Made by a program: the position numbers and the translations under genes | The notes under the pieces: generated by a model | Database searches by the model: none | What the model was told of the DNA's origin: nothing | The model's input: only the letters and a program-made list of their open reading frames with translations | Assembly (NCBI GenBank): GCA_051362555.1 | Contig: CM120641.1 | Span: 310,001-374,000, forward strand | DNA from: Lingula anatina | Lineage: Eukaryota; Animalia; Brachiopoda | Reading direction: 5' to 3' | DNA: 64,000 bases | In this document: positions 40,940 through 62,286 of the stretch, one piece after another | Position numbering within the stretch: the first letter of the stretch is position 1 | Layout: each line of letters begins with the position of its first letter

Positions 40940-43432
40940 CTAAACCAAGGTTATTTCTGGGGCGGTGAGGGCAATGACTTTATGGTTGTGTGGGATTGGG
41001 ACATCGCGTAATGTGAACATCCTTACACCATCTATCAACCAGCGAAGAGAATCTTTGTTTTTATCAAAAAATTCACAGCTGGCTGGATTCGACCAGTTTA
41101 AAAACAAATCCACCTCTGCATCTTTGGGGATCGACCGCAGCGCTTTTTGTAGGAGAAGTTTGGAAATGACGAGAGAGTCCGCAAAAAGGGGCGCCATTCT
41201 ATACGCCGTCTGTCCGGGCTGGACAATCGTGTACCCAGTGATATCTCCACTCTTTTTGTTGACGGCTACAAAAGATTTTGACGATGGCCGAGCTAAATAT
41301 TTCTCTAAAAACATTGGTCTTGGAATAGTGTGGATTTCCGTATCATACTTCAGTAGTAAATCAAATGGCACTTTAGATGCTGTCACGACTTCAGTTTCAA
41401 CATTATCTCCATCTGCTGCCAACCAAGACTCGTTGATTCGCCCCGAAACGAGACCAATTCTGTCGGTGGCAATCTGGAAGCCACTGTCATGGAGAATCTG
41501 CTGTCTGTGTAACACTGAAAATACGCCTAAATTCCTATCTCCAATCCGCTTACTTCTCTCTGCCCACATCTTTTTGGCTAGATAAGGTAAAAAAGGAATT
41601 GGTGATATCAAAGGTTTAAAGCACTAAGACAGGCTTTGGATATTACAGTATCTCACAGGTCAGGTTTTCCATTACGGATGTAAGGTGTTTCTATTGAGGC
41701 AAACAAGGCTTTACTATCTAGATATAGATGTGAAAAACTTATTTCAGCTAGTCAAACTGTATTTTCAAACTTATTCAAATTTTGATAGATAGGAAAACTG
41801 TTGCCAAACGACCTCTTAAACTTGATAAATAAAATAGTTTATTACCTATTCCCTTTCCTCTGAGTTCTGGTACAATAGCGGCAAGACCACCAAAGGCTTC
41901 TTTTTCATCCAAAAGATGTAACACCACGGAACCTTTTAAGAAACGTACATTCTGTGATTCAAATAATTTGCGATAATAGATATGACTGTATAAAAGAAAT
42001 CAAATATGCCTATTTTTCGCAAGAGCCGCCAGGTATGGCAAATGTAAGAAAGGATATTCCTGTGGCCGGATTCACCATTAAATCAGATTCAATAACATGA
42101 AACTATGCGCTTAATTATATTCTCCATCTTTTACATCTATTCAAAACCATGTGTCAATTCGCATTTCAATGCAAAACTGGATCAAAGTTATGTAATAAAA
42201 TCAGAAATATTGACTTTTTCCCCTTTTAAGATTGCAGGCCTACCCAACTACCAGACTCTGCACCGAATGATCCTGAATTCACCAGTAGATCGGACCAAAC
42301 TAGCCGTTTTCAAGGTGTACGTCAGTAAGCGCTTCGAAGTATCAGACGCGACACCGCTCTTGCCTAGAAGACTATAGTACGCGATGTGATAGTGATGATT
42401 CTCAGCGGGGTTGGAAAGTAGTGTATCTCATCTCGAAATTTGTGTCGGGGTATGATACTGTATTGGGGGATGGTTGAGGGGAGACTCGTAAGGAAAACTA
42501 TGCTAAGGCAAGTGCAACGGATTACGCTCGGATCGACATGTCAATTCATTTCATGATATCCATTCATTTCAGTCATTTGATCAACAAAAAAAAGGACGGA
42601 GTGATCAGAAAAAAGTGACCACAATGCGTCCAAACTAAGGCAATAGAACTAAAAATTTATACACTGGAAGTCACTCAAATTTCCGATTATTTTCCTGGAT
42701 ATCAGACAAGGAAAGATCACCCTAACCCCTTCATGGAAAGTTTTTTTTTTTTTTTTTTTAAAGAACGTTTACCAACAACTTTTCCATCCAGTTCTGCCAC
42801 CAGGAAATTGTCTGCGGCAATGTCCACAAAGGTTTCTATGGTCTCCGGGATGTAGTTCCATGACTCGGCATTGTAGATGTCTGTCAGACTTGCTGCATCT
42901 TTCTTCTGTGCAGATCGGATTATAACACGGGAAGATGCGTCTCCTGCACCTGACGAACGTGCTCTAAGTCTGTAAGTGCAACATGTATCTTGATATTTAT
43001 GTGAATGGGTCCCGCGCAGATTTACCTCAATTATTCAAATCATTGGATACAATATTTATGAGAAATATCACTAAATAAAAAAAAAACGCCATCGAAACAA
43101 AATCTTCCCCAGTCGATATAGTATACTAAATAAAGTTGAAAGACAAACATCACAATATAAAGAAGATATTGTTGACAGAAAACACCCCGTCCATGTATTT
43201 AAAATGTCTTATTTTACCTTACTGCCCCGAAAATATCCTTCGAATTAATTACACACCATAAAGATTGTCTTTAAGTACACAGATGAGTAAATCAAAGAGT
43301 AAAACAGCCCACAGCTGAAGTTACATACGACATGAGATTCTCTCCAGTGACGTAAGCGCTCCGACCAAAAAACACGCGGGGATAACCCAAGGACGCAGAT
43401 TTCGTTACCCAGTGTTGCAGCATGTTATACAT
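40940..43432 (-). CDS. GNAT acyltransferase, YitH/HolE-like, copy 2; exons 43432-43329, 42969-42773, 41932-41846, 41577-40940
   Basis: Same exon phases and near-identical lengths (104/197/87/638); high similarity to copy 1. Confidence 0.8.
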
Positions 43433-44809: not shown

Positions 44810-47800
44810 CTAAACCAAGGTCATTTCTGGGGAGGTGATGGCAATGACCTTATGGTTGTGTGGGATTGGGACTTCACGGAGCGTGAACATCTTTACACAG
44901 TCTATCACCCAGCGAAGAGAATCTTTGTTCTTATCAAAAAATTCACGGCTGACTGGATTCGACCAGTTCAAAAACATGTCTATCTCCGCATCTTTGGGGA
45001 TCGACCGCTGTGCCTTTTGTAGGAGAAGTTTGGAAATGACGAGAGAGTCCGCAAAAAGGGGCGCCATTCTATACGCCGTCTGTCCGGGTTGGACAATCGT
45101 GTACCCAGTGATATCTCCACTCTTTTTGTTGACGGCTACAAAAGATTTTGACGATGGCCGAGCTAAATATTTCTCTAAAAATAATGGTCTTGGAATGGTG
45201 TGGATTTCCGCATCATACTTCAGCAATAAATGAAATGGCACATTTGATGCTGTCACGACTTCAGTTTCAACATTTTCTCCCTCTGCAGCCAACCAAGACT
45301 CGTCGATTCGCCCCGAAACAAGACCAATTCTGTCGGTGGCGACCTGGAAGCCGTTGTCATGGAGAATCTGCTGTCTGTGCGACACAGAAACTACGCCAAA
45401 ATTCCGATCTCCAATCCGCTTACTTCTCTCTGCCCACATCTTTTTGACTGGATAAGGTAAAAAATGGAATTGGTTATTTTAAATGTTTAGAATCAACACA
45501 GGTTAACATTTGGTAGTTCTACAACATTGGATATTTAAAATATTACAACAAGAACCCACCACCCTTACCAGTGGGACAAAAAATTTAAAAAATAAATAAT
45601 GGTTGAAAGGAGGCTCGCATTAAGAAGTTAAATGTTACAGTTGTACGTTGTACGTTCTAGATAGGGAAAAACTTATTTTATCCGGAAAATGTTAATATTT
45701 GATAAAGAAGTGTGTTGCTCATAAAATGATAGATAAACCTCTAAAAACCTTATAAATAAAATTGTCTTTTACCTATTCCCTTTCGTCTGAGTTCTGGTAC
45801 AATAGCGGCTAGACCACCGAATGCTTCTTTTTCATTCAAAACATTGACCATCACGGAACCTTTAAAACAAAAAGTACGTTCTGTGAGTAGTAAGAGACGA
45901 GGTTTTCAACCTGCATTTTCGGAGGAGGTATATACTTTTAATGTAATTTTTTTAGTGAACCTTGAACTTTTTGAGGAGGAGTGTACTTTCAATGTAATTT
46001 CTTAGTGACCCCTGAAGCAGAAAGGAGGCTTTGCAAGCGAATTTTAATGACAATCATTTTAGTGTAAACGAGGGACGAGCAAATTCTAATGATGATTCAA
46101 TAAAACCTAATAGGAGTTTTTTTTTTAAAGAATAAATATAATTGTATAGCGAGCAAAGAAACGTAAAGGAGGGGTTTGTATGGTTATTTTAGCTATATTT
46201 AATTTCAGGAGTTATTGGAAAAAGTTTTTGATTATTTATTTTATTGAAAGGGCAATTTGAAACCCTTTTTTCTAGAAATGCGCAGAAGAATGCGTTTGGT
46301 GCGCCCTCACCCATCTCGTGTTTGTGAATATACAGCTGAATGCGTTAAGGCTTGCATGAGCTAGAAACCTCTTGAAAATACAATGCATCTAAGCGGTCTG
46401 GGCCAACCATGCAGAAAATTGATTTTGTCATTTCTGATGTCTTCTAGCTGACCCGTGATATGCTTACAAAGGAAAGTTCTAGAATATTTTTGGGAATCAT
46501 TGCAATAATTAAGACACAGAGGGAGTTTTAGAATATACTGGAACTTTGAAAAGTTTTTTTTAATATAAAAATCATAGACACCTAGGTTTCTGCACCTCAC
46601 ATACCGGCAATATATCAAAAGTATTATTGTATGCGCAGTGAACCCATGCGGTCTGCGCCAGCCATGCGGTAAATTGATTTTGCTATCACTGATGTCTCTG
46701 AGCTGACCCGTGTTATACCCACAAAGAAAAGCTCTAGAATATGTTGGGAAACATTGCAATAAGACACACAGAGAGAGTTTTAAATGTACTGGAATTGTGA
46801 AAAGTTTTTTTAATATAAAAATCATAGACGCCTAGATATCTGCACTTTACATACCGGTAATATATGAATATCATTGTACGTATGCGCAGTGCACCCAAGC
46901 GGTCTGCGCCGGCCATGCAGTAAATTGATTTTGTTATTACTGATGTCTCTGAGCTGACCTGTGATACGTTCGCAAAGAAAAGTTCTGTAATATTTTGGGA
47001 AACATTGCATTAAGACACAGAAGGAGTTTTAGAATATACTGGAACTGTGAAAAGTTTTTTAATATAAAAATCATAGACGCCTAGATAACTGCACTTTACA
47101 TACCGGTAATATATGAATATTATTGCACGTATGCGCAGTGCATCCAAGCGGTCTGCGCCATGCCAGCCATGCAATTAATTGATTTCATATGCTAGTACTG
47201 AATACATATGAATAGTATTTGTTATACTATACACGTCCATTAGACCTAAGCGGTCTGTGCCAGCCATGCAATAAATTGATTTCATATACCTGGACTTAGA
47301 ATATATCGTTCAAAAATTTGAGCTGTAAATTCTGCTCTGCGCTATGCATGTGTCTTTCTCTGCACAATCACTCTTATGAATTCTCATAAAAAATCGTATA
47401 TATTTCGCATTTTAGAATTGTAAAATCTTATGAATTATGAAAATTGAAATGTTTAGGAATATAAAATTCGAAATACGAATTCATACAAAAAGTGAATTTT
47501 GGTATTTTGCATTTTTACAAAACGCGAATTTTGAATTGCACAATTTATTATTTCTTACGAATCTTATTTATTTTTCAAACGAAGTACTGTACCTCACAAA
47601 GCTTTTGATCACTACCGTGACCTTAGCCATTCGTCATCTCATATAAATCATTTTACTATGACCTATAAGTTTAATTTAGTTGTAGTAGAATAGAAAATAA
47701 AATCAAAGCAGAAGTAAAATTCATTACAGAAAATATAATAATAAATAAAATGTTGGTAATTGATATTTATATGAATAAAGAATGCGGAGACCTTTGTAGA

Positions 47801-50800
47801 GTAGACTGACACGAAGAACGAAAATGTACTGTGCTTTCTACTTCGCGTAGCAACTAAAGTGGAAGATCATTACACGCTTCTATACACCACAATGGTGACA
47901 CTTTGAATGGCACTGGTTGTATTTGTTCGCTGACCAGCTTTTTGCATTATTCGAGTAAAACGGGGCATGCCTGGACAACGCTCACAATTCAAACAAAAAT
48001 TGTATTTACCTAGGGGAAATGATATCCTTTAACACGACTGTCAGTGTGCAGAATATTTACTGAACGAGATAGACTTGGGATCAGCGAGACCTCGTTTGTT
48101 GTAAAGTCTCCTTATATTTTAGCGACTATAAACACTGTCAGCAACAGTAGACATGAATAGATGTGGTTCTGCTCGACGTGTAACTTTGGAATATAATGCA
48201 GTTTAGTTTGTTGCCTGACAGGTGAAGTCAACCACGATGACCAGCGCAGTCACAATGCGCTTAGTGAGAACCAAACACAGTGAGACTTAATGCCTCAACG
48301 GCGTCGAACGCAGTAACATCACATTGCAACTGGATGCAGTCTACGCTCGTCTAAAAAGGCCATTCGTATTTAAACACACATATTATAAAATATTTTGTTG
48401 AGTCACGAATCTGGAATATTCCTATTATCTTCCGAATTTCAATAGAACATTCCATAACATGATACTCAGAAAAGAGTTGAGACACAGATCTGAGACATCT
48501 CTATTATCTTTTTAGCCGGGTTTAACTGGTTTTTGGTTATTGTATAAAAGCTCCTTAATCAGAATTTCGATAGACACGTTTTATTACACAATTAAAAACA
48601 GTCCATAACATAATACTAAGAAAAAGATATCTGGAATATTCCTTTTATCTTCCGAATTCAGGGGCGGATCCAGAGATATTTTCTGACAGTCTTCCAAATT
48701 ATCTTTGTTGATCCATCCTCATTTTTGACCGTCTTCCGACAGAAAATGTTAGATACCCGTCCATATAAAATCTTGAAAAGACTTGAAATTCTGACCGTCT
48801 TCCGGAAGACCCAGAAGACGGCCTAAATCCGCCCCTGGAATTTCAATAGAAAATTCCGTAACACAATACTAAGAAAAGAGATCTGGAATATTCCTTTTAT
48901 CTTCCGAATTTCAATAGGAAATTCCATAACATGATACTAAGAAAAGAGATCTGGAATATTCCTATTATCTTCCGAATTTCAATAGAACATAATACTAAGA
49001 AAAGAGATCTGGAATATTCCTATTATCTTCCGAATTTCAATAGGAAATTCCATAACATAATACTAAGAAAAGAGATCTGGAATATTCCTATTATCTTCCG
49101 AATTTCAATAGAACATAATACTAAGAAAAGAGATCTGGAATATTCCTATTATCTTCCGAATTTCAATAGAAAATTCCGTAACATAATACTAAGAAAAGAG
49201 ATCTGGAATATTCCTATTATCTTCCGAATTTCAATAGAAAATTCCATTAAAAATGCTGACTCATTGTATTACGCTGCGTATAAATATCCCGTGATTCAAA
49301 GGACACAGGCAGGCAACGCGGATCACTCAGAATTACGGCAGAGCTGTCTTTCCGATAGCGTCGCACACTTAGAAGAGGTCGAAACCGAGAGCGACGTCCA
49401 CCACTTACAAAGCAGGTAAGTAGTTGTTTTAAAAAAAATCACGTGATAAAAAAAATTGTGGGGTATATTAAGTTTCACTCTTGTAGAGACATTCAGTTGA
49501 GAAACATGGATTTGAGCATGAAACTTCCAATAAGTTTGGTCATCAACGGACCTAGCGGAGCCGGCAAGACTACTTTTCTTCAAAATTTCTTAAGATACTC
49601 AGATTTAATGACAGACCATGCTTTTGATAATATTATTTTCGCTTACGCTGTGTGGCAAGAGGCTTACGATCAAATTGAAAAAGAGGTCCCAAAACATATA
49701 ACTTTTATAGAGGGAATACCTAGTGACGAACAATTAGAAGAAATATATGACGCGAAAAAGTATTCGCTTCTTATTTTAGACGACTTATTTAGCGAAAGTT
49801 TCGAGAACCCTAAGATTAAACACATTTTCATACGAAATTCTCATCATAACAACGTGTCGATAATTCTTATTACCCATTCGTTATTTCCCAAAGAAAAGCA
49901 TGCCAGGACAATATCGCTTAACATGCAATATTTAGTACTTATGAAATCTCCTCGCGACCAATCGCAGATCAGGGCGTTGTCTCATCAGGTCTCTTTACAA
50001 AATTCAAAAAAGTTCATAGATATTTACAAAGACGCCACGTCCAAGCCCTACAGCTACCTTTTTATAGATTTCCGTCAAACAACCCCCGAAGAAGTGCGAC
50101 TAAGAACAAATATTTTTCCCGGAGAAACGCATTACGTCTACCTGCCCGTATAAAAAGAAGGTGATTTCGTGTCGCTGCGTCACTTTACAATGAAGTCCGA
50201 ATCCACAAACACGTTCATGCCACATCTTAATTTTCTATCCATAGCCGACAGAAGATTGACAAAAAGCGTGATCGAGAATTCGCCAAATACCCTCATTCGA
50301 AACCTGTGCAATTTAGCTAGTAATCTTTTGCGCAACACTGAGTACAGATTGACTGCACAAGAGAGAAATAAGTTAAGTCATCTCAAAAGTCTCGTGCTTA
50401 AACTAGTGGAGAAACAGAGATCGCTGAAAATCAAGAAGAAAATATTAGCGAAAAACCCTTCATTAGTCAAGGCAATTGTGCAACCAGTGTTGAGACATGT
50501 CAGCGTTTAAAAAGATGGTTATCATAGATGAAACAGAGTTAAACGCTTTGCGAAGGAAATCAAACGCGGATTATTCACCATTACAGGATGAAGTTTTACG
50601 AAAGCAGAATGAACTGAGTTCTGTAATGCAAAGAGAAGACTTACCGTTTGATAAACGCATAAAGTTATACAACGAACTACAAAATGAATATATGCAGGTT
50701 GCCCGAAAAAAACAACCTATCTCTGTAACTATAGAAAATACGCCTACGTCTGCCAATGACTCCACTGAGAACGCGGAACCATCAAAGCGTTTTATCGATA

Positions 50801-53800
50801 CGCAAATATTAGAATCAATTCCCGCGCGGATGCGTAACAAGGCGAATAACATGTTGAGACTCATCGCCAAACACCCCACCCTTTTATCTTACGATGATCG
50901 AGGGTCGCTGATATACGACGGAGAGACTATACAAAACACTAACATAATTGATTTAATAAGTGAATTGTACGTTTCGAGAAAACGAAAGTTTACTCCCGCC
51001 GGATGGTCGATTTTTTTAAAGGGACTAAAACGTATAAATCTTCCTTCTACTCTTATATCCAATACTTTGCGGCGAGAGGAGTTTTTATCTCTACCATCAC
51101 ACACCAGTAAAAATAAAAAGAAACCCCAAACGGGTATGGGGAATAAATTTACGTCGTTTAATATATATTGAAACAAAGACAGCCGTGTATTTTGAAAATT
51201 TATTTAATAAATGTGTTGTTACACTGTTTTATTTGAGTTGTGATTTACAATATCTAGGTAACACAATAAAATTTCTATTTACAAAATCGTATACTACATA
51301 ATCGTTAAAATTGGTATCGTTTGAAAAGTTCGCACTTATCTCTCGCATGGTCTTCCCTCGAAAGCGTTGCGACAGAAAGTAAATTGTGTAGTAACCACAA
51401 ACAACACTCAAACGATCTTGTTACACTTTACTATTATAAGACCACCCTCTTGTCGAATTGTTGTTCAGGAATCGAGTAAAATTATTGTCGTAGTAGCTGG
51501 GGTGACGTCCATAGGAATCAAAAAATTCTGCTGATCCGTCATTTGAAACATAAATGCTGACCCAATGTTCTCCTATTTCGTGATATTTAGCGGTGTTGAC
51601 TATCAGTCCTGCGGGATATGTACTGATATATTGTGGTAGAGTATCCGATGAGAACACGCCTATGAAATGTTTACACGAAATAGGATCCGATTTCATAATA
51701 CAGTCAAGTTGACGGTTATTCATGTTCACGGCTCCATATAAACGGAACGTCTATTGTCAATTTTGATCACAGAGTCAAACTCGGCAAACACAACGAGTAC
51801 GCTGTTATTGATAGGTTTTGTAAACTCCAGAGATACCCCTAGCGACCCCTGGCGCATAGGAGACGAGTAAGGCTGATGCGACTGATCGGGGCTTAAATCG
51901 AACCCGAAAATCGTGTTTCCCGCGTTAAAGGCTTCCCTCGATAACGATACATCTCTATCGGCTTCTTCGGGTTCAATTGTCGAAACGAGGTCGTTAAAAG
52001 GTCTTATATAATTTAATCCCTCATTCGTATCAAAATCTAAATTGTAGGGTTTGAGCGGAATTTGTTCTCCGGCCACGGTTAAACGCAAAGACCGAAGATT
52101 CTGATGTTTAAAGTTGAAGGGATTTAAATCGTACTGTCCCGAAAGGCTAGCGTCCGTCACCATACCCATAAAAATTCTACGCGGTATTTTAGACATGTAT
52201 ATGTTATCCAGAAAAGCACTTCGAACATTATTGGGTATATTGATTATTTTGACTTCTCTTCTCATGATGGGGTAACAAGCCACGTTATTCATCAACATAG
52301 TTTCGTGGGCAGCCTTGAGGCGGGACGAAACTTTAACCCTCCTCGCAAAAAGAGAATTGTTCTTTATCAGCATTTTTTCGTCTTTGGAAGTAGTTCCGGA
52401 CATTAAACAAAAACTATGTTCGCTTCTTCGTAGTTTTATCCTGATGTCTACATTGTTTAATAAAAGTTTCGGCTGTTGAAAAAAATCACATTTTATCTTC
52501 CCCATCATTTCACACTTTCGGGAACGTTGAAACAGCGAATATCTTCGTTTTAAGCCTTCATTAGCGGGATCTCCACTGACATCTGTCAAATCGAACAATC
52601 CGGGTGTATCCGTATACCAAGCTTCGTTGGTCAACCATGACTTTTTCGCAGAACTCCCGTGAAATAATAAGTTTTCCAAGTACGCACGGTAAGCGTAGGT
52701 GTTGTTAGATTCCGTTATGACCGTCCCATTCAATTCAACCTCCACATTCGAAAATAGCGAATGTAACGTATTGTTGACAGGAGCTGTATCCTGTCCGATA
52801 TCTATGTCACTAAAATCATTTTTTACTACTTGCGTTTCCAAATAAAGAACGATATTATTTGGGTCGATATATTCATCCGCGTTTCCTACGATAAGAAATT
52901 CTATTACGGGGGAAGTGTCTGTAACGCTGTTCACCGGTCTCAATTCTTCCACCGATGAATGTTCTATTTGAACTTGAAAAGCATCGCGAATGTTGCTGAA
53001 CAAATCCAGTTCCGTTCGAACAACGCTTTCCATTGTTACTAAAAATTAGTTTTCGCGGAGATGTGTTTGGTTGTGCGTTTTTTAACGCGTCTGGCCTTTT
53101 TTGCTTTTACGTCCTTTTTTATACTCATGCCGTTCATTGTTTTTGTAATAACATCACTGCTTACATAAAGTTTTCTTTTTCGAGTTTTTTCTTTCGCGTG
53201 ACGTGCAGGCTTTTCACCTATGCGAAGTACTACTGCGTGTCTAGCACCGCCGCCTTTTTGTCTTCCGTGGAATTTATTAATTATTCCTTCGCCTGCTTGG
53301 TTCTGATAGTACTTTAAGAGCGCTGTATAGACTGGATCCATCGTTACAGTAAATTTTTGCGTCTAAAATGAAGTGTTACGACGGTCTTTCTTCCTTGGAA
53401 CTGAACAAATTTCCCCGTGTCGTCGGTTATATGGATTTTTATTGTCGACAGTTCGTTAGAGATTAGAGGTACGTAAATAGGCGAATCAAAACTATGCGTG
53501 ATTGTTTCACCGAATTCCCCCTTGATCGGAACTATGCGCAGCAAATTTGCCGATGTGTCACCTACTAGTTGTGGTTTTATAATGTCTGTGTAAACATAGA
53601 GAGAATCGAAGTCGTCCGTCGTATTCGCCGGTTTAGTAGCTGTAGTAACCGCGGATATATTAACGTTATCGAAACCCAACATATTTCCAATGCTCCCGCT
53701 AAAGTGAACGCTTGCTCCCGCTTTCAAATGAACCGTTACCTTTTTCGTAATAATGTTGAATGCAAACCGAATGTTGATTTGGCCTTGAGCAGACATCCCG

Positions 53801-56800
53801 TTATGAATGGCTGTCAATAGGTCATTCACGTGGGGGTAATACCCATTAGACAACCGAAGCGTTTGAGGTTTTTGACCGTCGAAATAATTCAGAGAACTAT
53901 TTTCCACATTATTCCACGTTTTACAATAAAGTATTTCCGTCAAAGCTACTTCATATTGTCCGTGCAAATATAACGACGAGGACAGCTTAGTTCTAAACGC
54001 TTCGGGTCTGTTGCCTGGAAAAAAGTTGAAACTGCTGTTGGAAGGGAGTGTGATGTGAAAGGACGAGGCCATCGTTCCGACTAATCTTCGGAGGCCACAG
54101 CAAATCCTTTTTTATACTGTTTTGACGCGGGATGCGGGGACCCAACTGTTGAATTTGGAAGGCCAACCCTGCCATTTCACGAAATGTTCTTTCGATTTAC
54201 CCTTCCCTCTCGATTTCAAAATTTTTTCAACCCTATACACGTCATCTTTTTTTACGACGCGAATCATTTCTGGTCCATACATGACACCCTCAATCTCCTC
54301 TCCGTCGTAGTCTGCCACCTTGTAGACCGGCGGTGACCTGTTTAAACGTTGCGTTATCGTAAACAACTCCTGCGTCCAACCCTGCTCGTAGCCTTTCGCA
54401 AAGGGGGACCTATGTTTGCTCAATCGAACGGTGTCTCCGACGTTAAATTTGAACTTTGGTTTTTCTAGTTTTTTCCCCCCGTAAAGTTTATTCCATACCG
54501 CGTCCGAATTTTTTTCTTTTGAGGCCTCCGTCGGTGACATGCCTATACTCCGGTGTTTAGCCGCGTTGTACCCCGTCAGCAGTTGGTCGAGTGCGTGTAT
54601 GTACGTCAGCGTACTGTTGGCGGTGAAATATTTAAAAAATTTAGATTTTAAAGTCCTGTTCAGCCGTTCCACGATAGAGCTTTTTCGTTCCGACTTTGTT
54701 GTAAAAAACGATATTCCCTGTTCCTTGAGGTATGCTTGAAATTTCCTATTAGTAAATTCTGTTCCGGCATCTGACTGAAGGATAGCCGGTTTTCGACCTT
54801 CGGATAAAATTTTTTTAAACGCTTCTAAAACACTGTCAGCAGTTTTTGTTTTGATAGCAACAGCCCATGCAAATTTTGAAAATATATCAATCACGGTTAA
54901 AAGGTACTTATAACCCTTGTTGTGCTTAGATATTTTACCGAGGTCGGCTAAATCCGCCTGCCATTGCTGATCTGTACGACCAACCAGGACGCGATTGGTG
55001 CGAAATCTTTTTCTGACGTTGGCGTGTAGCGTATACGTATCTTGCTTGGCCAAAAACTCCTTAATCTGCTTTAGTCCGATTTTCTTTTTATCTCTTCGCG
55101 TCGCTTCATATAATTTCAACGCGCTTCCAAAGCTAGCGGGATTGGAAGGATCGTAATATATTTTCTTCAAGTAATCGTCTGTCTGTCCCTTACTTTTACC
55201 CGCTTGTCGTCTCTTCATCTTTTTCAACTTTAAAAGAGTCTGTATGTCCTTTGCATGGGGTTTTTGTCCACTTCGTCAAAGCCTATGTTTAACAGTGTTT
55301 TCACTGTACTGGGCGTGTACTTAGGTTTTCTTTCGTCGGCGACAAATAGCTGCACTAATTCGCGTCGCTTTTCGGGCGTCAGCGGAACATTTAGTGGATT
55401 CGCAAGTCTCTTCTCGACCGTGTTCATAGTACAGTGCGGACTGTGGCGTTCGTGTTCAACGTCCACTGCATCTCTCAACGGGTCCCAGTCTCTAAGACTG
55501 ACGCGACAGTTAAAACAAAGCACCGCGTCGTCTGTATTTGATGCGTCTTGGTCCCTGTAAAACCCGCTGATGGCTAAAGGTATAGGGTTGATGAGAAGTT
55601 TACCAGGCCAATTGAGAAAACTGAGAATCCTATCTTCTTCTTTACAATAGGGTGTTCGAAAAAACAAGGGCTTGTCTTCTGGTACACAGTCGGTGAATAC
55701 TTTACTGTCATCCATTCTTTAACTGGCTGATAAAATTGTAACTTTTATTTTAATACTCTTTTCGTTAGCCAATCAAAATAGTGCTCTTTGAATTAACCAA
55801 TCAAATCGTCTTATTTCAACCAACCATATATAAAACACGTTATTATAGTCTGCATTTAATTTTCATTTCAGATCGACAGCGACCATGGCACAGTACAAAT
55901 GCGAAGTGTGCGGCGCATCCTTCGACCGCGTCGATAACCTTAAACGACACCGGCTCACCCACACGAAGGAAAAACATGTAGCATGCCCCGAATGCGGGAA
56001 GACTTTTGCTCGTCGAGATAACATGAATAGGCATCTACGCCTCCACCCGGGGACCTCGACGAGTTTGAGCGAAGAACCAGAGGCCTCTTCGGCAGTTAAA
56101 AGACCCAGGATTCAAAGGGGGTCGGGAGCCGCCGACCGCGTCGTCATGCCCGACAATCTTCTACCCCCGGACGTCGACCCGTCGGTTGCCGAAGCGTACG
56201 GAAGCCATTGGAACAGCATACGGACCAGATCCTCGAGGGGTAACAAACTCCAAGACTGGTACAATATTAGATTGACCACCCTTCAACCCGATGCCCTTCG
56301 AGACGACCTGGAGCGGATCTTGGAAGATCAACGCACGGCGTTCAAGATCAACGTGTCGTACGGTTTTTTCTTAAGAAACAACGAGACCGGGCAGTTGAGG
56401 TACTACCACCCCAGCAGCAACAACCACTGCTTCTTAGAAGCGCCCGCTGTGATCCGCCACCGCCAGGATCTCGACGGTTTCTTCCACAACATTACCGCCA
56501 GAGATGTCTTAGAATGTGCTCGACAGGAGAGGCCAAATTCGAAGTGGGTGGTAGACACGGTCACCAACGCCACGTTTTACGTGACGAAGTTAAAGGGTCA
56601 CCCCATCGGGTGCGGGATCGACCTGCCTTCCTTCGTGCTTAAAAACAAGGGTCTCGTTGCCCTGCAAAAAAACAACCGAGGAAAAACGTACCGCGACAAT
56701 CTCTGCCTCTTTCGATGCCTCGCCTTGCACAAAGGTTCATCCGTCAGAGGACTGGAAACAACAACGAAGAAACTGTTTGATAAGTACAGGGAAAGCAAAA

Positions 56801-59800
56801 GAAAATGCAAACACAAAGGTTTCCAAGGCGTGGCGCTCCATCGACTGCACAAGGTGGAAGACCTCTTCGAGGTAAACATCGTCGTGTACGAACTGCAGCA
56901 AAACGAAGACGGGGACGTGTTTGCAGAACTCGTTCGTCGATCAACGGGCAAGCACAAGGACACCATGTCGCTGAACGTGCACGAAAATCATTTTTCGTAC
57001 ATCAGCGACGTGGACAAATACTGCCGCTCGTTTTGCTGTTCGAGGTGCAGCAAAATGTTCAAGAGCAAATGGTCCCTTCAGCGCCACGAACGGACCTGCG
57101 ACGTCCTCGTAGAGCACCGTTTTCCCGGCAAGGCGTACGCTCCCCAGCCCACCGTATTCGACCTCCTCGAAGACGAGGGCATTTTCGTCCCCGAGGAAGA
57201 CAGATACTATCGATATCGGGCGACTTTCGACATCGAGTGTCTGCTACCCCGTACGGAGGAGCCGCAGCACAGCGAAAAGCTGAGCTTAGAACACGAACAT
57301 CGTTTCCTCAGCGTCAGCGTGTGCAGCAACGTGCCTGGTCACACGAAGCCAGAATGCATCGTATCCGAGGACAATCCCGCGCTAGCCGTGCAGCAGTTCC
57401 TAGAAATATTGCAGAATATAAGCCGCGCGGCTGAAAAACTTCTTACCAACAAGTTTGCCTGGATCTTCGAAAAACTTAACGAAAAAATAGATCAAAACAT
57501 TCAAAAAACGATACAGGAAAGTGAAGTCATGGAGGAAGATGAAGAAACCTTAACAAACAAACATTACTTATCAAAACTTAGCCGTAGATTTAGTCAATAT
57601 TTAATGGAATTACCCGTATTAGGTTTCAACAGTGGGCATTACGACCTTAACGCCATGAAAACGCTGTTTTTTCCGTTGTTGTTGGACACCTTGAAATTTG
57701 TCGTAAAACGCAACAACAATTTCATGGTGTTAAAATCGGAACGCCTAAAAATCTTAGACATCTGCAACTATTTGGCTCCCGGATGCAGCTATAGTCAGTT
57801 TTTAAAAGCTTTCGAGTGTGCCGAGTCCAAGGGGTTCTTCCCTTACGAGTGGATGGACTCTTTGGACAAACTCGAGTGTGCAAGTCTCCCTCCACGCGAA
57901 GCGTTTTACTCGAAATTAAAACAAAGTAATATCACTGAGGAGGATTACGCATTGTGTCAACGCGTTTGGCATGAAAACCAGATGCAAACAATGCGCGACT
58001 TCCTCGAGTGGTATAACAACAAAGACGTTGAGCCAATGTTAGAAGCAGTGGATAAAATGTTCGCCTTCTACCTTGAGAGGGGTATTGATATGTTTAAAGA
58101 TGGTATTAGTGTACCAGGTTTGACATTGAAATACCTGTTTCAAAACGTAGGAGACGCATTTTTCACTCTCTTCGACGATAAGCACAGCGATCTTTACTAC
58201 CTTCTAAAAAACGCTATCGTAGGCGGTCCCAGCATCATCTTTCATCGCTACCACGAGAGGAATAAGACCTTTCTTCGAAAGGCGACATCCGAAGCTCCCA
58301 AGCTGTGCAAAAAGATCGTAGGGTACGACGCTAATGCCCTGTACCTGTGGTGTTTGATGCAACCCATGCCCACGGGTACGTTTATACGCAGACGCGAAGA
58401 GTCCGAGTATACGCGTGAATATTCTCACCCGCGAGGCCGTGAGGCCACGTTGTGGTTAGACTGGGTCGCTCGTTCGAGCAATATTCTCATTCGACATCAG
58501 TTCAACGGTACGGAAAAGCGCGTCGGGTACCGTCAGCTACCGGTGGATGGGTTTTGTCGAGAGACGCAGACCGTGTATCAGTACCACGGGTGTTATTTTC
58601 ACGGTCATCGGTGCCATTTAAACCGAAACAAAGATGGCACCTACAAAGAAATAAATGACACGAAAAAGGTCACTATGGAATCTTTACGTATAGAAACTGA
58701 AATTAATAGCGAGTACATTCGGGAATGCGGCTACGATCTCGTCGAAATGTGGGAGTGTGAGTGGAAAAAACTTCAACGCGAAAGCGAGGAAGTGAAGCAT
58801 TTCGTGACACAGTACACACTTCCCACAGAGCACAAATATCGGCTCACGTTCGGCGAGATCCTATTCGCGATTCGCAATGATAATCTGTTTGGCTTCGAGT
58901 GCGACGTAGAAGTCCCGCCGGAACTTAGACCAAAATTTTCAGAAATGCCACCCATTTTTAAAAACACAACCGTTTCCCGCGACGACATCGGTCCTTTCAT
59001 GAAACGTTTCGCTGAAGAAAACCGCATCATGAGTGTCCCGAGACGTTCGTTGATCGGGAGTTTTTTCGGCGAAAAAATTGTTTTGGCGACCCCGCTTTTG
59101 AAATGGTACCTAAACCACGGTCTTTGCGTGACGCGCATCCACCAGGTAGTCGAGTACACCCCGAAAGCCTGTTTCGAGCATTTCGGAAACTCCGTGAGTG
59201 ACGCTCGCAGGGAGGGAGACAGGGACAAGACCAAAGCTATCGTCGCCGACACCATGAAGCTTATCGGCAACTCGGGCTACGGGAAAACGGTGACCAACAA
59301 AGAAACGCACCGAGATGTGCAATATTGCGGCGAGGCAAAAGCCTCACAAAAAGTTAACAGTCACCGTTTTCGGCGTTTAGATAAAATTTGCGAAAACGCG
59401 TACGAGGTCGAGCTTAACAAAAAAATCATCAAATTCGACCTTCCTCTTCAGATAGGCGTGATGGTGTATCAGTACGCCAAGCTACGCATGTTAGAGTTTT
59501 ACTACGACTTCATGCTGAAATTCATGGATCCGTCCGATTTCCAATATTGCGAAATGGACACGGATTCCGCGTACATCGCCTTCTCGGCGGAAAGCTTAGA
59601 AGAATTAGTTAAACCTCACATGAGAGCGCAGTACGAAGCCGAGAAACATCTGTGGTTTCCGCGTACTGACACCCCAGAACACGAAGCCTACGACAAACGC
59701 ACGCCCGGGTTGTTTAAAGCCGAGTGGGTCGGTGACGGTATCGTTGGTCTCTGTAGTAAGACGTACTACTGTTTCGGGGAAAACACCGACCCGAAATTTA

Positions 59801-62286
59801 GCTGCAAAGGGGTCAATAGAAATAGTAATAACATAGATAAAAGTAAGTATTTAGATGTACTTTTAAATAAACAAAGCGGTAGTGGCGTCAATAGGGGGAT
59901 ACGTTTATTTAACAATACTATGTATTCGTATCTTCAACACAGAGACGCCTTTAGTTATTTCTATTCTAAACGAAAAGTGCTAGAAGATGGAGTATCTACT
60001 GAACCCTTAGATATCTAGTGTCTTTTAAATAAAATATGTATACAAGGATCAGCGGTATTTATTTTTTCTTTTCAATGACCTAATGCGCTTTACATACAAG
60101 GTCAGACGCACGGGCACCAAACGCGTTCTTCTGTGGATGTATAAAACTTCTCAAAAAATATTTTCAAGAGGTTTCTAGCTCATGCAAGCCTTAGCGCATT
60201 CAGCTGTACATTCACAAACACGAGACGGGTGCGGGCGCACCAAATGCATTCTTCTGCGCATTTCTAGAAAAAAAGGGTTCCAAATTGCCCTTTCAATGAA
60301 TAAATAATCCAAATTTTTTTTCCGATAACTCCTGAAATTAAATATAGCTAAAAATAACCATACACTCCCCTCCTTTACGCTTCTTTGCTCGCTACACAAT
60401 TATTTAACAAAAAACCTTCTAGGTTTTATTGAATCGTCTTTAAAATTTGCTCGTCCCTCGTTTACACTAAAATGATTGTCATTAAAATTCGCTTGCAAAG
60501 CCCCCTTTCTGCTTCAGGGGTCACTAAGAAATTACATTGAAAGTACACTCCTCCTCAAAAGGTTCAAGGTTCACTAAAAAAATTACATTAAAAGTATATA
60601 CCTCCTCCGAAAATGCAGGTTGAAAACCTCGTCTCTTACTACTTCTGTGTCTTAAATAATGTGCAGTTACAGCTATATGACTGAATAAAGAAATCAAATA
60701 TGCCTCATTAGCGCAAGGTACCCAGGTATGGCAGATAAAAGTTATAAAATATTCTTGTTGCCGGATTCGCCGTTAAATCGGATTCAATGACATGATACTC
60801 TTTGCTTAATTAAAGGGATAACAACTCTTCGCATGGCATTCAAAATTCCACAACAATACATTGAAACACATACAAAATACAATGAATTCCATTTTACCAC
60901 CGAAATGGCAGTTAATGCAACTTTTCTCTGTGCTTGCCATCGGACCACGTGGACTTTGGCTACCCTCTGTAATAATCTCTTCATCATCATCATCATTCAC
61001 AGCCAAAAGTCTTCCACTGTTGGACAGAGGTCTCAGCATGCTTAAGAGATAATTGAAAAACGGACTTACTTTAAATGTCAGAACGGATTCACTAACCATT
61101 GGAAAGTATGGGAAAATCGTCTTATTACGTTTATGGCACTTTTCCCACCAAAATGAACAGTTGTTATCCCTTTAAATTTTTCATCTTTTACATCTACTCA
61201 AAACAATGTGTCCATTAGCTTTTTTGAAAATTTAAAAATACCTCAAAATGTCAAGCTGAATCAATGCTTTTTACTATAATTATCATAAAAATTGGCCATT
61301 TCCCTTTCAAAATGTAGGGGAGAGTCGTAAGGAATAGCATTTCAAGGCAAGTGCATCGAATTACGCTCGGATCGACATGTTCGTTCATGTCAGTCACGTG
61401 ATTAACGAAAATAGACGAAGTGCTCTAAAGAAAAGTGACCACAATGTCTGAAACTAAAGAAGCAACACTAAGGATATATGCACAGGAACTCTAAAACATC
61501 AGAGCATTTTTCCTGGCTATCAACGAAGGAAAGGTCACTTAAAACCCACCCCAACCCTTGCACGGAAAGAGTAAATTGTAACAAAAAAAAGGGATTTACC
61601 AACAACTTTTCCATCCAATTCTGCCACCAGGAAATTGTCTCCGGCAATGTCCACAAAGGTTTCTATGGTCTCCGGGATGTAGTTCCATGACTCGGCGTTG
61701 TAGATGTCTCTTAGACTTAATACATCTTTCTTCTGTGCATATCGAATTTTAACACGGGAAGATGCGTCTCCTGCACCTGACGAACAAGCTCTTAGTCTGC
61801 AAGTGCAACATGTATACATTCATGCATGTGAATGGGTCCCGCACAGATTTACCTCAGTTATTCAAATCATTGGTTACAATATTCATGAGAAATATCACTT
61901 AAAGAGAAAAAATGCCATCGAAACTAAAATCTTTTCGAGTCGATATAGTATACTTAATAAAGTTGATAGACAAATTACATCACAATAAAAGGTAGATACT
62001 GTAGACAGAAAACACCACAAAATATTGGTTTCGATCCAAGTCCATGTATTTAATATGTCTTATTTTATCCTACCGCCAAAAATATCCATCGAATTAAATA
62101 CGGGCCACAAAGATTGTCTTCATGTACACAGTAGAGAAAATCAAAGAATAAAACTGCCCACACTATTGAGGTTACTTACGCTATGAATTTCTCTCCCGTG
62201 ACGTAAGCGCCCCGATCAAAAAACACGCGGGGGTAACCCAAGGACGCAGATTTTGTGGCCCATTGTCGCAGCATGTTATACGCCAT
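44810..62286 (-). CDS. GNAT acyltransferase, YitH/HolE-like, copy 3; exons 62286-62180, 61796-61600, 45859-45773, 45447-44810; Polinton in intron 2
   Basis: Four exons of 107/197/87/638 nt remain open and in phase; the intron flanks match copies 1 and 2 on both sides of the Polinton. Confidence 0.8.
45886..46380 (+). repeat. Left terminal inverted repeat of the Polinton
   Basis: Reverse complement of 60159-60643. Confidence 0.95.
46386..47288. repeat. ~250-bp subterminal tandem repeat (3 units plus partials)
   Basis: GCGGTCTG...CCATGC...ATTGATTT anchor at 46393, 46648, 46899, 47148 and 47250. Confidence 0.9.
48409..49247. repeat. 68/58-bp alternating tandem repeat containing the palindrome GGAATATTCC
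   Basis: ATCTGGAATA anchors at 48881, 48949, 49007, 49075, 49133 and 49201, with earlier units near 48409 and 48629. Confidence 0.9.
48659..48837. mobile_element. 179-bp MITE nested in the Polinton
   Basis: TIR CAGGGGCGGAT/ATCCGCCCCTG; GAATT duplicated at 48654-48658 and 48838-48842; interrupts one repeat unit. Confidence 0.85.
49279..49505 (+). promoter_or_regulatory. TATA box and probable 71-nt leader intron before the ATPase
   Basis: TATAAATA at 49279; CAG|GTAAGT donor at 49416; TTTCACTCTTGTAG acceptor ending at 49486. Confidence 0.55.
49506..50153 (+). CDS. Polinton packaging ATPase (A32/FtsK-like)
   Basis: Walker A GPSGAGKT, Walker B LLILDD, RTISLN, and KPYSYLFIDF motifs; first ATG at 49506. 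Confidence 0.92.
   Translation: MDLSMKLPISLVINGPSGAGKTTFLQNFLRYSDLMTDHAFDNIIFAYAVWQEAYDQIEKEVPKHITFIEGIPSDEQLEEIYDAKKYSLLILDDLFSESFENPKIKHIFIRNSHHNNVSIILITHSLFPKEKHARTISLNMQYLVLMKSPRDQSQIRALSHQVSLQNSKKFIDIYKDATSKPYSYLFIDFRQTTPEEVRLRTNIFPGETHYVYLPV
50190..50510 (+). CDS. Small basic Polinton protein, function unknown
   Basis: Lys/Leu-rich ORF directly after the ATPase that overlaps the next ORF; resembles small conserved Polinton ORFs. Confidence 0.65.
   Translation: MKSESTNTFMPHLNFLSIADRRLTKSVIENSPNTLIRNLCNLASNLLRNTEYRLTAQERNKLSHLKSLVLKLVEKQRSLKIKKKILAKNPSLVKAIVQPVLRHVSV
50497..51171 (+). CDS. Conserved Polinton protein of unknown function
   Basis: 224-aa ORF with KKMVII, G.LIYDG..I..TNIIDLI and P.GW..FLKGL..INLP..LISN, a pattern recalled from Polinton ORFs; AATAAA at 51206. 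Confidence 0.75.
   Translation: MSAFKKMVIIDETELNALRRKSNADYSPLQDEVLRKQNELSSVMQREDLPFDKRIKLYNELQNEYMQVARKKQPISVTIENTPTSANDSTENAEPSKRFIDTQILESIPARMRNKANNMLRLIAKHPTLLSYDDRGSLIYDGETIQNTNIIDLISELYVSRKRKFTPAGWSIFLKGLKRINLPSTLISNTLRREEFLSLPSHTSKNKKKPQTGMGNKFTSFNIY
51229..51723 (-). pseudogene. Adenain-like cysteine protease with one in-frame stop
   Basis: GEHWV (His), FFDSYG (Asp), then KV*QDRLSVVCGYY (Gln, Cys); TAA at 51421-51423 with the frame continuing. Confidence 0.9.
51726..53033 (-). CDS. Polinton major capsid protein (double jelly-roll, PY/F54H12.2-like)
   Basis: ELDLF, IEF.I, PVNNTLHSLFS.VEVELNG, YAYRAYLE.LL, NPFNFKH and FDLSPD motifs; 435 aa. Confidence 0.9.
   Translation of the reverse strand: MESVVRTELDLFSNIRDAFQVQIEHSSVEELRPVNSVTDTSPVIEFLIVGNADEYIDPNNIVLYLETQVVKNDFSDIDIGQDTAPVNNTLHSLFSNVEVELNGTVITESNNTYAYRAYLENLLFHGSSAKKSWLTNEAWYTDTPGLFDLTDVSGDPANEGLKRRYSLFQRSRKCEMMGKIKCDFFQQPKLLLNNVDIRIKLRRSEHSFCLMSGTTSKDEKMLIKNNSLFARRVKVSSRLKAAHETMLMNNVACYPIMRREVKIINIPNNVRSAFLDNIYMSKIPRRIFMGMVTDASLSGQYDLNPFNFKHQNLRSLRLTVAGEQIPLKPYNLDFDTNEGLNYIRPFNDLVSTIEPEEADRDVSLSREAFNAGNTIFGFDLSPDQSHQPYSSPMRQGSLGVSLEFTKPINNSVLVVFAEFDSVIKIDNRRSVYMEP
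53039..53341 (-). CDS. Basic putative core/DNA-condensing protein
   Basis: YYQNQAGEG...F.G.QKGGG followed by a very Lys/Arg-rich tail; lies between the capsid genes. Confidence 0.7.
   Translation of the reverse strand: MDPVYTALLKYYQNQAGEGIINKFHGRQKGGGARHAVVLRIGEKPARHAKEKTRKRKLYVSSDVITKTMNGMSIKKDVKAKKARRVKKRTTKHISAKTNF
53344..54072 (-). CDS. Polinton minor capsid protein (penton, PX)
   Basis: F.ITLPSNSS...FP.N, YEVALTEI, LYVYTDII..QLVGD...LLRIV, YVP and TLHFR motifs. Confidence 0.88.
   Translation of the reverse strand: MASSFHITLPSNSSFNFFPGNRPEAFRTKLSSSLYLHGQYEVALTEILYCKTWNNVENSSLNYFDGQKPQTLRLSNGYYPHVNDLLTAIHNGMSAQGQINIRFAFNIITKKVTVHLKAGASVHFSGSIGNMLGFDNVNISAVTTATKPANTTDDFDSLYVYTDIIKPQLVGDTSANLLRIVPIKGEFGETITHSFDSPIYVPLISNELSTIKIHITDDTGKFVQFQGRKTVVTLHFRRKNLL
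54112..55218 (-). CDS. Polinton rve integrase with C-terminal chromodomain
   Basis: DDE triad in WQADL, QSDAGTEF and VERLNRTLK; chromodomain YRVEKIL...FVKWQGWP..FNSW; first ATG at 55218. Confidence 0.95.
   Translation of the reverse strand: MKRRQAGKSKGQTDDYLKKIYYDPSNPASFGSALKLYEATRRDKKKIGLKQIKEFLAKQDTYTLHANVRKRFRTNRVLVGRTDQQWQADLADLGKISKHNKGYKYLLTVIDIFSKFAWAVAIKTKTADSVLEAFKKILSEGRKPAILQSDAGTEFTNRKFQAYLKEQGISFFTTKSERKSSIVERLNRTLKSKFFKYFTANSTLTYIHALDQLLTGYNAAKHRSIGMSPTEASKEKNSDAVWNKLYGGKKLEKPKFKFNVGDTVRLSKHRSPFAKGYEQGWTQELFTITQRLNRSPPVYKVADYDGEEIEGVMYGPEMIRVVKKDDVYRVEKILKSRGKGKSKEHFVKWQGWPSKFNSWVPASRVKTV
55230..55715 (-). CDS. Single-BIR-domain (IAP-like) protein carried by the Polinton
   Basis: R..SF..WP, LA..GFY, D.V.CFNC...L..W...D, EH..HSP.C: BIR signature with CCHC zinc ligands. 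Confidence 0.88.
   Translation of the reverse strand: MDDSKVFTDCVPEDKPLFFRTPYCKEEDRILSFLNWPGKLLINPIPLAISGFYRDQDASNTDDAVLCFNCRVSLRDWDPLRDAVDVEHERHSPHCTMNTVEKRLANPLNVPLTPEKRRELVQLFVADERKPKYTPSTVKTLLNIGFDEVDKNPMQRTYRLF
55716..55884. promoter_or_regulatory. Divergent promoter between the BIR gene and pPolB
   Basis: CCAATCAAA at 55769 and 55797; TATATAAAA at 55827; Kozak-like GACCATGG. Confidence 0.6.
55885..60018 (+). CDS. Protein-primed family B DNA polymerase (pPolB)
   Basis: Exonuclease motifs FDIE, FNSGHYD and YNNKDV; polymerase motifs YDANALY, KLIGNSGYG and MDTDS; two N-terminal C2H2 fingers; 1377 aa with no stop. Confidence 0.97.
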   Translation: MAQYKCEVCGASFDRVDNLKRHRLTHTKEKHVACPECGKTFARRDNMNRHLRLHPGTSTSLSEEPEASSAVKRPRIQRGSGAADRVVMPDNLLPPDVDPSVAEAYGSHWNSIRTRSSRGNKLQDWYNIRLTTLQPDALRDDLERILEDQRTAFKINVSYGFFLRNNETGQLRYYHPSSNNHCFLEAPAVIRHRQDLDGFFHNITARDVLECARQERPNSKWVVDTVTNATFYVTKLKGHPIGCGIDLPSFVLKNKGLVALQKNNRGKTYRDNLCLFRCLALHKGSSVRGLETTTKKLFDKYRESKRKCKHKGFQGVALHRLHKVEDLFEVNIVVYELQQNEDGDVFAELVRRSTGKHKDTMSLNVHENHFSYISDVDKYCRSFCCSRCSKMFKSKWSLQRHERTCDVLVEHRFPGKAYAPQPTVFDLLEDEGIFVPEEDRYYRYRATFDIECLLPRTEEPQHSEKLSLEHEHRFLSVSVCSNVPGHTKPECIVSEDNPALAVQQFLEILQNISRAAEKLLTNKFAWIFEKLNEKIDQNIQKTIQESEVMEEDEETLTNKHYLSKLSRRFSQYLMELPVLGFNSGHYDLNAMKTLFFPLLLDTLKFVVKRNNNFMVLKSERLKILDICNYLAPGCSYSQFLKAFECAESKGFFPYEWMDSLDKLECASLPPREAFYSKLKQSNITEEDYALCQRVWHENQMQTMRDFLEWYNNKDVEPMLEAVDKMFAFYLERGIDMFKDGISVPGLTLKYLFQNVGDAFFTLFDDKHSDLYYLLKNAIVGGPSIIFHRYHERNKTFLRKATSEAPKLCKKIVGYDANALYLWCLMQPMPTGTFIRRREESEYTREYSHPRGREATLWLDWVARSSNILIRHQFNGTEKRVGYRQLPVDGFCRETQTVYQYHGCYFHGHRCHLNRNKDGTYKEINDTKKVTMESLRIETEINSEYIRECGYDLVEMWECEWKKLQRESEEVKHFVTQYTLPTEHKYRLTFGEILFAIRNDNLFGFECDVEVPPELRPKFSEMPPIFKNTTVSRDDIGPFMKRFAEENRIMSVPRRSLIGSFFGEKIVLATPLLKWYLNHGLCVTRIHQVVEYTPKACFEHFGNSVSDARREGDRDKTKAIVADTMKLIGNSGYGKTVTNKETHRDVQYCGEAKASQKVNSHRFRRLDKICENAYEVELNKKIIKFDLPLQIGVMVYQYAKLRMLEFYYDFMLKFMDPSDFQYCEMDTDSAYIAFSAESLEELVKPHMRAQYEAEKHLWFPRTDTPEHEAYDKRTPGLFKAEWVGDGIVGLCSKTYYCFGENTDPKFSCKGVNRNSNNIDKSKYLDVLLNKQSGSGVNRGIRLFNNTMYSYLQHRDAFSYFYSKRKVLEDGVSTEPLDI
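60159..60643 (-). repeat. Right terminal inverted repeat of the Polinton
   Basis: Reverse complement of 45886-46380. Confidence 0.95.
60814..61171. mobile_element. 358-bp non-autonomous element with TTAA TSD (Kolobok-like)
   Basis: TTAA|AGGGATAACAACT...AGTTGTTATCCCT|TTAA; the insertion is absent at the equivalent intron position of copies 1 and 2. Confidence 0.75.

What the first reader, a model, noticed from the sequence alone, without database searches (positions are those of the whole stretch)
55230..55715. Polinton carries an inhibitor-of-apoptosis (BIR) gene at the head of its integrase unit
Seen: an intact, intronless 161-aa single-BIR, RING-less ORF, divergent from pPolB across 169 bp and ending 11 nt before the integrase ATG. 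Established: BIR/IAP genes are anti-apoptotic host genes captured by large DNA viruses and are not part of the Polinton core set. Inference: an early counter-defence gene co-expressed with the replication and integration enzymes, supporting a true viral lifestyle. This is the best candidate for an undescribed system here; I cannot verify novelty.
Basis: partly seen in the sequence, partly recalled or inferred. Interest (0 to 1): 0.85.

Follow-up and report, generated by a model that had tools for sequence, protein, structure and literature searches.

The report
Polinton virus with captured BIR gene
A virus-like mobile element (Polinton) sitting in an animal intron carries a real, selection-maintained fragment of a host cell-death-inhibitor gene that likely soaks up death-promoting proteins while the element replicates; such genes were already noted in Polintons, so this is a new example and not a new system.

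Summary
In detail: 55230-55715 (minus strand) is an intronless 161-aa ORF with one zinc-binding BIR domain (Pfam E 5e-12), no RING, 169 bp from the divergent pPolB and 11 nt before the integrase. It lies in a 14,758-bp Polinton with TIRs and a 6-bp target duplication; this copy's protease frame is interrupted. Diverged copies in four DNA runs keep the gene, and 11 of the 12 listed BIR-domain differences are synonymous, so it is under purifying selection. Novelty is not supported: Starrett et al. 2021 state that adintoviruses (Polintons) carry IAP homologues, and 2 of 92 other Polinton loci I fetched carry unrelated-looking single-BIR genes, one in the same slot. Early co-expression is not shown: tight spacing runs through the whole six-gene string, and RNA reads are scarce. 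Likely mechanism (inferred, untested): a RING-less type II BIR that binds IAP antagonists. The scan noted a Maverick-type element with IAP cargo before, on other DNA. Open lead: intronless single-BIR "retrogenes" counted as host IAP expansions in bivalves may be Polinton cargo.

The parts
55230..55715 (-). Single-BIR, RING-less IAP-like gene, 161 aa (BIR aa 29-97; UBA-helix-1-like motif aa 136-148, weak)
55716..55884 (.). 169-bp divergent gap with two CCAAT boxes (55769, 55797) and a TATA-like motif (55827); likely bidirectional promoter, not statistically strong
   Evidence: chance of two or more CCAAT about 0.06
55885..60018 (+). Protein-primed DNA polymerase B, 1377 aa, N-terminal C2H2 fingers; no PF03175 hit, so Beta-like by the Starrett definition
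   Evidence: tblastn to pPolB of other Polintons
54112..55218 (-). Retroviral-type integrase with C-terminal chromodomain, 368 aa
   Evidence: rve E 5.5e-16, Chromo E 1.7e-8
53344..54072 (-). Likely minor capsid protein (penton), 242 aa
   Evidence: conserved position and tblastn hits in other Polinton loci; named from the gene order in PMC8097293; no Pfam hit
53039..53341 (-). Basic 100-aa ORF in the PW position
   Evidence: named by position only
51726..53033 (-). Likely major capsid protein, 435 aa
   Evidence: named by position; no Pfam hit
51229..51723 (-). Adenovirus-type maturation protease, interrupted by an in-frame stop at 51421-51423
   Evidence: (Peptidase_C5 E 0.027); the homologue in L027 is one 173-aa frame
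49506..50153 (+). Packaging ATPase, 215 aa
   Evidence: Pox_A32 E 5e-9
50190..51171 (+). Two ORFs (106 aa, 224 aa) in the PM and PZ positions
   Evidence: named by position
45886..46380 (+). Left terminal inverted repeat, starts AGTAGT; preceded by TSD TCTGTG (45880-45885)
   Evidence: 459 of 482 aligned positions match the right arm
60159..60643 (-). Right terminal inverted repeat, ends ACTACT; followed by TSD TCTGTG (60644-60649)

Best explanation
This is an accessory gene of a Polinton (Maverick/adintovirus) family, encoding one BIR domain and no RING, likely cut down from a host IAP gene, that is predicted to act as a sink for IAP antagonists so that the host cell survives while the element replicates and integrates. 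Shown: the ORF, the BIR fold with its zinc ligands, its place inside the element, its presence in diverged copies, the excess of synonymous change. Inferred: (1) origin by truncation of a BIR-UBA-RING host IAP; (2) transcription from the gap shared with pPolB, where it is the first ORF of its strand; (3) its type II groove (L74, W77, D82, E87) binds N-terminal IBM peptides of Smac/HtrA2-like antagonists or processed caspases; (4) lacking a RING it cannot ubiquitinate them or itself, so it works by sequestration and leaves host IAPs free; (5) the death trigger is the element's linear DNA ends and integrase breaks.
For: BIR by profile. AlphaFold model confident over the BIR (pLDDT block means 87-94 for aa 21-100), closest to BIRC6 and XIAP BIR2 (rmsd 1.6-1.7 A over 73-77 columns for XIAP BIR2). 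Alignment with host BIRs shows the acid before the zinc His (E87) and D82 as in BIR2/BIR3, whereas the four BIR1 rows shown have R or K there (reading this as the type I/II mark is my recalled knowledge). Selection: 25 of the 40 listed differences synonymous against 21-29% expected; BIR 11 of 12 (p<1e-5), rest 14 of 28, Fisher p 0.015. Viral IAPs are described as working by neutralising IBM-bearing antagonists (PMC3972657). Recurrent carriage: L027 and L071 and published cases.
Against: No binding or cell assay. RING-less BIR proteins are often not anti-apoptotic and are excluded from 'bona fide IAPs' in PMC11521996. The BIR has insertions and an Asp at a usually hydrophobic position next to the groove, so peptide specificity may have changed. 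RNA evidence is thin: 8, 2 and 69 reads on 4.5 kb in three runs, both orientations in the best one. Only 40 of 218 differences were shown, the best supported, so the ratio is not a proper dN/dS. The UBA trace is 13 residues, noticed after the fact, with no Pfam hit. 90 of 92 related loci show no BIR (many are short contigs), so Polintons do not need it.
Confidence: 0.55

Rival explanations
1. The BIR is a decoy in immune signalling, not cell death: it competes with host IAPs for RIP-kinase/IMD-type partners and damps NF-kB antiviral output.
For: Best structural matches include XIAP BIR2, also in its RIP2K complex (rank 15); the tree puts it weakly on the BIR1/BIR2 side (78/91); a RING-less BIR would act as a dominant negative (established knowledge).
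Against: The tree placement is unresolved (68 columns); groove residues are of the IBM-binding type; no partner evidence.
Confidence: 0.2
2. It works like survivin or BRUCE: a single BIR that binds the histone H3 tail or cell-cycle partners and tethers or times the element, alongside the integrase chromodomain.
For: Single BIR; top PDB sequence hits are BIRC6; ESM Atlas first cluster is named BIRC5.2 fragment (0.93, low recognition value); survivin structures among fold hits.
Against: No long C-terminal helix: the model has short helices and the 64-aa tail holds 6 prolines (the tail model is low-confidence and its alignment was built from UBA-bearing IAPs); the tail resembles an IAP UBA start; survivin scores below XIAP BIR2 by sequence.
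Confidence: 0.12
3. The gene is a passenger: captured by chance and carried without function.
For: RNA nearly absent; the full-length protein has one relative in 1.84 billion representatives; most related Polinton loci lack it.
Against: Synonymous excess concentrated in the BIR; zinc ligands intact in both full sequences; the 12 of 22 indels shown come in clusters that sum to zero or to multiples of three (my reading of its table 4); silence of integrated copies in bulk tissue is expected.
Confidence: 0.06

Closest known systems
Adintovirus/Polinton IAP homologues (Starrett et al. 2021, PMC8502044; leafhopper adintoviruses, bioRxiv 10.64898/2026.07.28.741253)
   Same: IAP-like accessory gene inside a Polinton with pPolB, integrase, capsid, ATPase and protease genes.
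   Different: The passages I saw only name the gene (one sentence, map labels next to Mytilus and Pinctada in the Fig. S2 text); they give no domain anatomy, selection test or origin. Whether those genes are single-BIR I could not see.
Baculovirus, nudivirus, entomopoxvirus and malacoherpesvirus IAPs
   Same: Host-derived BIR in an invertebrate dsDNA virus; top BFVD fold hits.
   Different: The canonical anti-apoptotic ones have BIRs plus a RING (recalled); this has one BIR, no RING, and sits in a 15-kb integrating element.
Host BIR-UBA-RING IAPs (XIAP, cIAP, DIAP, lophotrochozoan BIRC7-like)
   Same: BIR at about 37-45% identity to their best domains; weak trace of UBA helix 1 and its GF loop after the BIR.
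   Different: No other BIRs, no full UBA, no RING, no intron.
Survivin (BIRC5) and BRUCE (BIRC6)
   Same: Single BIR ending EHERHSPxC as in BIRC6.
   Different: No long coiled-coil helix, no UBC domain.
Vertebrate Mavericks (PMC8097293)
   Same: (AGT)2//(ACT)2 ends, 6-bp TSD, the int-mcp-pw-Mcp-pro module, atp-pm-pz order.
   Different: pPolB is split off from atp-pm-pz and points away from the integrase module, with the BIR gene between them.

Membership tests
BIR domain (PF00653) | Profile score above gathering cut-off | tested here: met
   46.5 vs 22.9 bits
BIR domain (PF00653) | CX2C...W...HX6C zinc site and BIR fold | tested here: met
   C67, C70, W77, H88, C95; fold matches
Bona fide IAP (BIR + RING, definition used in PMC11521996) | C-terminal RING domain | tested here: not met
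   No RING hit; no Cys or His in the 64-aa tail
Bona fide IAP | Blocks apoptosis in cells | not testable with these tools
   needs a cell assay
Type II (IBM-binding) BIR | Groove residues: Leu, Trp, acid at the XIAP E314 position, Glu/Gln before the zinc His (numbering recalled) | tested here: met
   L74, W77, D82, E87 in the alignment; a one-residue insertion makes the D82 register depend on gap placement, and the helix start at residue 84 in the model supports it
Type II (IBM-binding) BIR | Binds IBM tetrapeptides | not testable with these tools
   the complex tool needs chains of 30 residues or more; not run
Survivin (BIRC5) | Long C-terminal helix for borealin/INCENP | tested here: not met
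   short helices, proline-rich tail; tail model of low confidence
IAP-type UBA domain | Three-helix UBA after the last BIR | tested here: inconclusive
   only helix 1 plus GF loop matches: 8.1 bits, 0 of 500 shuffles as high (best 5.7); Pfam UBA_BIRC2-3 not hit
Polinton/Maverick | pPolB and rve integrase, TIRs, 6-bp TSD, (AGT)2 ends | tested here: met
Polinton/Maverick | Intact virion module (MCP, penton, ATPase, protease) | tested here: not met
   all four genes present but the protease frame has an in-frame stop; MCP and penton named by homology and position, not by fold
Beta adintovirus | PolB too divergent for pfam03175 | tested here: met
   no PF03175 hit, while L027 and L071 PolBs hit at E<1e-43
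Beta adintovirus | N-terminal OTU domain on PolB | not tested
   no search made for it

The most novel reading that the evidence does not exclude
Polintons repeatedly and independently capture single-BIR, RING-less pieces of host IAP genes as decoys, and a large share of the intronless single-BIR 'retroposed IAPs' counted as host gene-family expansion in bivalves and other lophotrochozoans (42 intronless genes of hard-clam clade 1; the BIR+PC4 'G3' type) are in fact Polinton cargo, so part of the reported IAP expansion is endogenous virus.
Probability: 0.3. Interest if true: 0.65.

Novelty: new member of a known kind. Interest (0 to 1): 0.35.

Why it matters
As it stands it adds a documented case, with evidence of selection, to a one-sentence published remark that Polintons carry IAP genes, and shows that the cargo is single-BIR and RING-less in all three elements examined here. 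Selection on a host-manipulation gene fits Polintons acting against cell defences. The larger stake is the lead that such cargo is annotated as host IAP (the one database relative is named 'putative inhibitor of apoptosis' in Lingula anatina) and may inflate claimed IAP expansions in marine invertebrates; that is cheap to test on existing genomes.

Tried and rejected
No whole genome is held for this window, so copy number and per-copy dN/dS could not be computed. Direct searches with the BIR protein found no relative in viral contigs (0 of 9 pattern matches) or metagenome contigs (0 of 176); the integrase alone found none in viral contigs (0 of 26). Single-sequence AlphaFold failed (pLDDT 34) and was not used. 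The profile search with alignment A1 returned 38 general BIR proteins and no new close relative. The AU test did not reject one clade for the Polinton BIRs (p 0.31), so independent capture is not proved by the tree. No RNA holder was listed in the run index; that blank is not evidence. Pfam found no UBA in the tail (best: SpoVIF E 0.056, rejected as noise). An Atlas search on the tail alone did not complete, so the tail has no language-model check. The 3-kb left part of the element (46380-49450) gave no blastx hit to other loci and no convincing ORF. Earlier-findings look-ups by sequence and by relatives were empty. Papers without bearing: PMC8905726, bioRxiv 10.64898/2026.10.13.758929 (no mention of IAP, BIR or apoptosis), bioRxiv 10.1101/2023.08.22.554363 (no 'apoptosis'). 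No complex prediction was run: no suitable partner sequence was at hand.

Full report
1. Observation. The ORF at 55230-55715 is on the minus strand, 161 aa, uninterrupted. Pfam gives one family, BIR, aa 29-97, E 5.4e-12, 46.5 bits against a cut-off of 22.9. Zinc ligands C67, C70, H88, C95 are present and the 64-aa tail has no Cys or His, so no RING. The gaps are as stated: 169 bp to the pPolB start, 11 nt to the integrase start. PDB sequence hits are BIR proteins, led by BIRC6, NAIP and XIAP BIR2. An AlphaFold model from a 43-sequence alignment is confident over the BIR and poor at both ends and matches BIRC6 and XIAP BIR2 best; in BFVD it matches baculovirus and nudivirus IAPs.

2. The element. 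It spans 45886-60643 (14,758 bp), begins AGTAGT, ends ACTACT, and is flanked by TCTGTG on both sides; the TIR arms agree at 459 of 482 aligned positions. These ends and the int-mcp-pw-Mcp-pro order are those of vertebrate Mavericks (PMC8097293, section 7 and term passages read). It interrupts an intron of one of three tandem GNAT genes; a paralogous intron shows the empty site. The protease frame has an in-frame stop at 51421-51423. pPolB has no PF03175 hit, so it is Beta-like by the definition of Starrett et al.. The only full-length relative of the BIR protein is XP_013419444 of Lingula anatina, 133 of 161 identical, named 'putative inhibitor of apoptosis'; the other 149 of the best 150 hits among 1.84 billion representatives match through two or more stretches, as multi-BIR proteins do. 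The host is therefore likely a brachiopod (inference). Whether that record lies in a Polinton I could not check.

3. A family gene under selection. Four DNA runs from four studies gave 56, 43, 28 and 25 contigs on the gene, of which 25, 18, 10 and 13 are under 90% alike. In X1 one diverged contig runs from the BIR 5' end into pPolB and others join BIR to integrase sequence, so the arrangement is shared by diverged copies. Of 218 differences the tool showed the 40 best supported: 25 synonymous, 15 not, none a stop; expected synonymous share 0.21-0.29. Within the BIR 11 of 12 are synonymous (p<1e-5), outside 14 of 28 (Fisher p 0.015). For scale, the listed differences were 8 synonymous of 11 in integrase, 6 of 12 in the pPolB N-terminal part and 3 of 6 in penton.

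4. Expression. Three RNA runs (about 6%, 6% and 25% read) gave 8, 2 and 69 reads on 52900-57400, i.e. 0.14, 0.05 and 1.4 reads per kb per million, summed over copies; the best run has both orientations and shows no start, end or joint. The family is close to silent in these samples and co-transcription with integrase is not shown. The 11-nt gap is unremarkable: the next gaps are 39, 2, 5 and 2 nt, so BIR heads a string that includes the capsid genes and 'early' does not follow from position. The divergent gap has two CCAAT boxes and a TATA-like motif, weak on their own (p about 0.06).

5. Other Polintons. An integrase alignment fetched 92 loci (12 from viral contigs; the best 80 of 506 from metagenome contigs). 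A BIR profile built from 491 host domains hit 2 of 92, both among the 18 loci where integrase, pPolB and MCP were all detected. L027 has a 213-aa single-BIR gene divergent from pPolB and upstream of integrase, the same slot as here; of the two loci with that divergent layout one has a BIR. L071 has a single-BIR gene with an intron, near its TIR. Both have PF03175-type polymerases. The window's BIR is 26% and 33% identical to those two (which are 36% identical to each other), while each is 43-52% identical to its best host domain; they form one group in 0 of 200 bootstrap trees (78 rows, being 4 Polinton rows and 74 host domains picked by BLAST, by name or at random from 491; survivin and BIRC6 not included), but the AU test does not reject one clade (p 0.31). 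Repeated capture is likely, not proved.

6. Mechanism. The groove pattern is that of IBM-binding BIRs. A 13-residue stretch at aa 136-148 matches helix 1 and the GF loop of IAP UBA domains (8.1 bits; 0 of 500 shuffles as high), which suggests truncation of a BIR-UBA-RING gene; the match was noticed first and tested after, and Pfam misses it. PMC3972657 (passages) says that type II BIRs bind IBMs and that viral IAPs seem to act by neutralising IBM-bearing antagonists. A RING-less BIR could do that by sequestration alone. I put this at 0.55, an immune-signalling decoy at 0.2, a survivin-like role at 0.12 and a passenger at 0.06. It fails the BIR+RING definition of an IAP (PMC11521996, passages), so it should be called a BIR protein, not a proven inhibitor.

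7. What is known. [quoted passage not shown] In the extracted text of its Fig. S2, 'IAP' stands next to the Mytilus and Pinctada labels; I saw text only, and Fig. S1 was unreadable and may hold domain detail. A 2026 leafhopper preprint lists IAP among adintovirus ORFs (passages; its supplements were not seen). Searches pairing Polinton or Maverick terms with IAP, BIR, PC4 or apoptosis (listings) showed no paper on the anatomy, selection or repeated capture of these genes; the library lacks most subscription journals and Repbase.

8. The lead. PMC7831173 (passages) attributes 42 intronless single-BIR clam genes to retroposition, finds DNA transposons enriched around IAP genes, most such copies silent, and a BIR+PC4 type in clams and mussels. 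L027 has a BIR gene next to a weakly PC4-like ORF. These facts fit Polinton cargo, but I could not test a clam genome; probability 0.3.

9. Verdict. Real, functional by selection, correctly identified as to domain, already known as a kind. New member of a known kind; interest 0.35.

Noticed in passing
window 35432-37500, 40940-43000, 44810-45439 with 61535-61819: Three tandem host GNAT acetyltransferase genes (PF18014 tested on two); the Polinton sits in an intron of the third, and the paralogous intron near 41950 shows the empty site with a single TCTGTG.
   Followed up: partly
window 51421-51423: In-frame stop in the Polinton protease gene; this copy probably cannot mature virions by itself.
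   Followed up: partly
window 46380-49450: About 3 kb inside the element with 250-bp and 58/68-bp tandem repeats and no convincing ORF; an accessory region or subterminal repeat array.
   Followed up: partly
L027 5272-7307: Complete 15-kb Polinton with a 213-aa single-BIR gene followed by a 328-aa ORF with a weak PC4 match (E 0.0015 on its first 140 aa, below cut-off), between divergent pPolB and integrase; recalls the BIR+PC4 'G3 IAP' of clams and mussels in PMC7831173.
   Followed up: partly
L071 609-1095: Complete 13.7-kb Polinton (502-bp perfect TIRs) whose BIR gene is split by a GT-AG intron inside the domain, pointing to capture from genomic DNA, not mRNA.
   Followed up: partly
window 30778-34635: Degraded LTR retrotransposon (gag, protease, RT, integrase-like frames on the minus strand, broken by stops; direct repeats near 30652-30793 and 34888-35029); named by eye from the translations.
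   Followed up: no
window 3832-5799 and 20607-21563: Host coding exons: an acidic, DDFGDF-rich frame (aftiphilin-like, recalled) and a 318-aa frame with a SERTA-like motif (recalled).
   Followed up: no
window 55885-60018: pPolB starts with C2H2 zinc fingers (also in L027) and carries a YHGC(Y)FHG motif of the VSR-nuclease insert kind described for some Polinton polymerases (motif assignment recalled).
   Followed up: no
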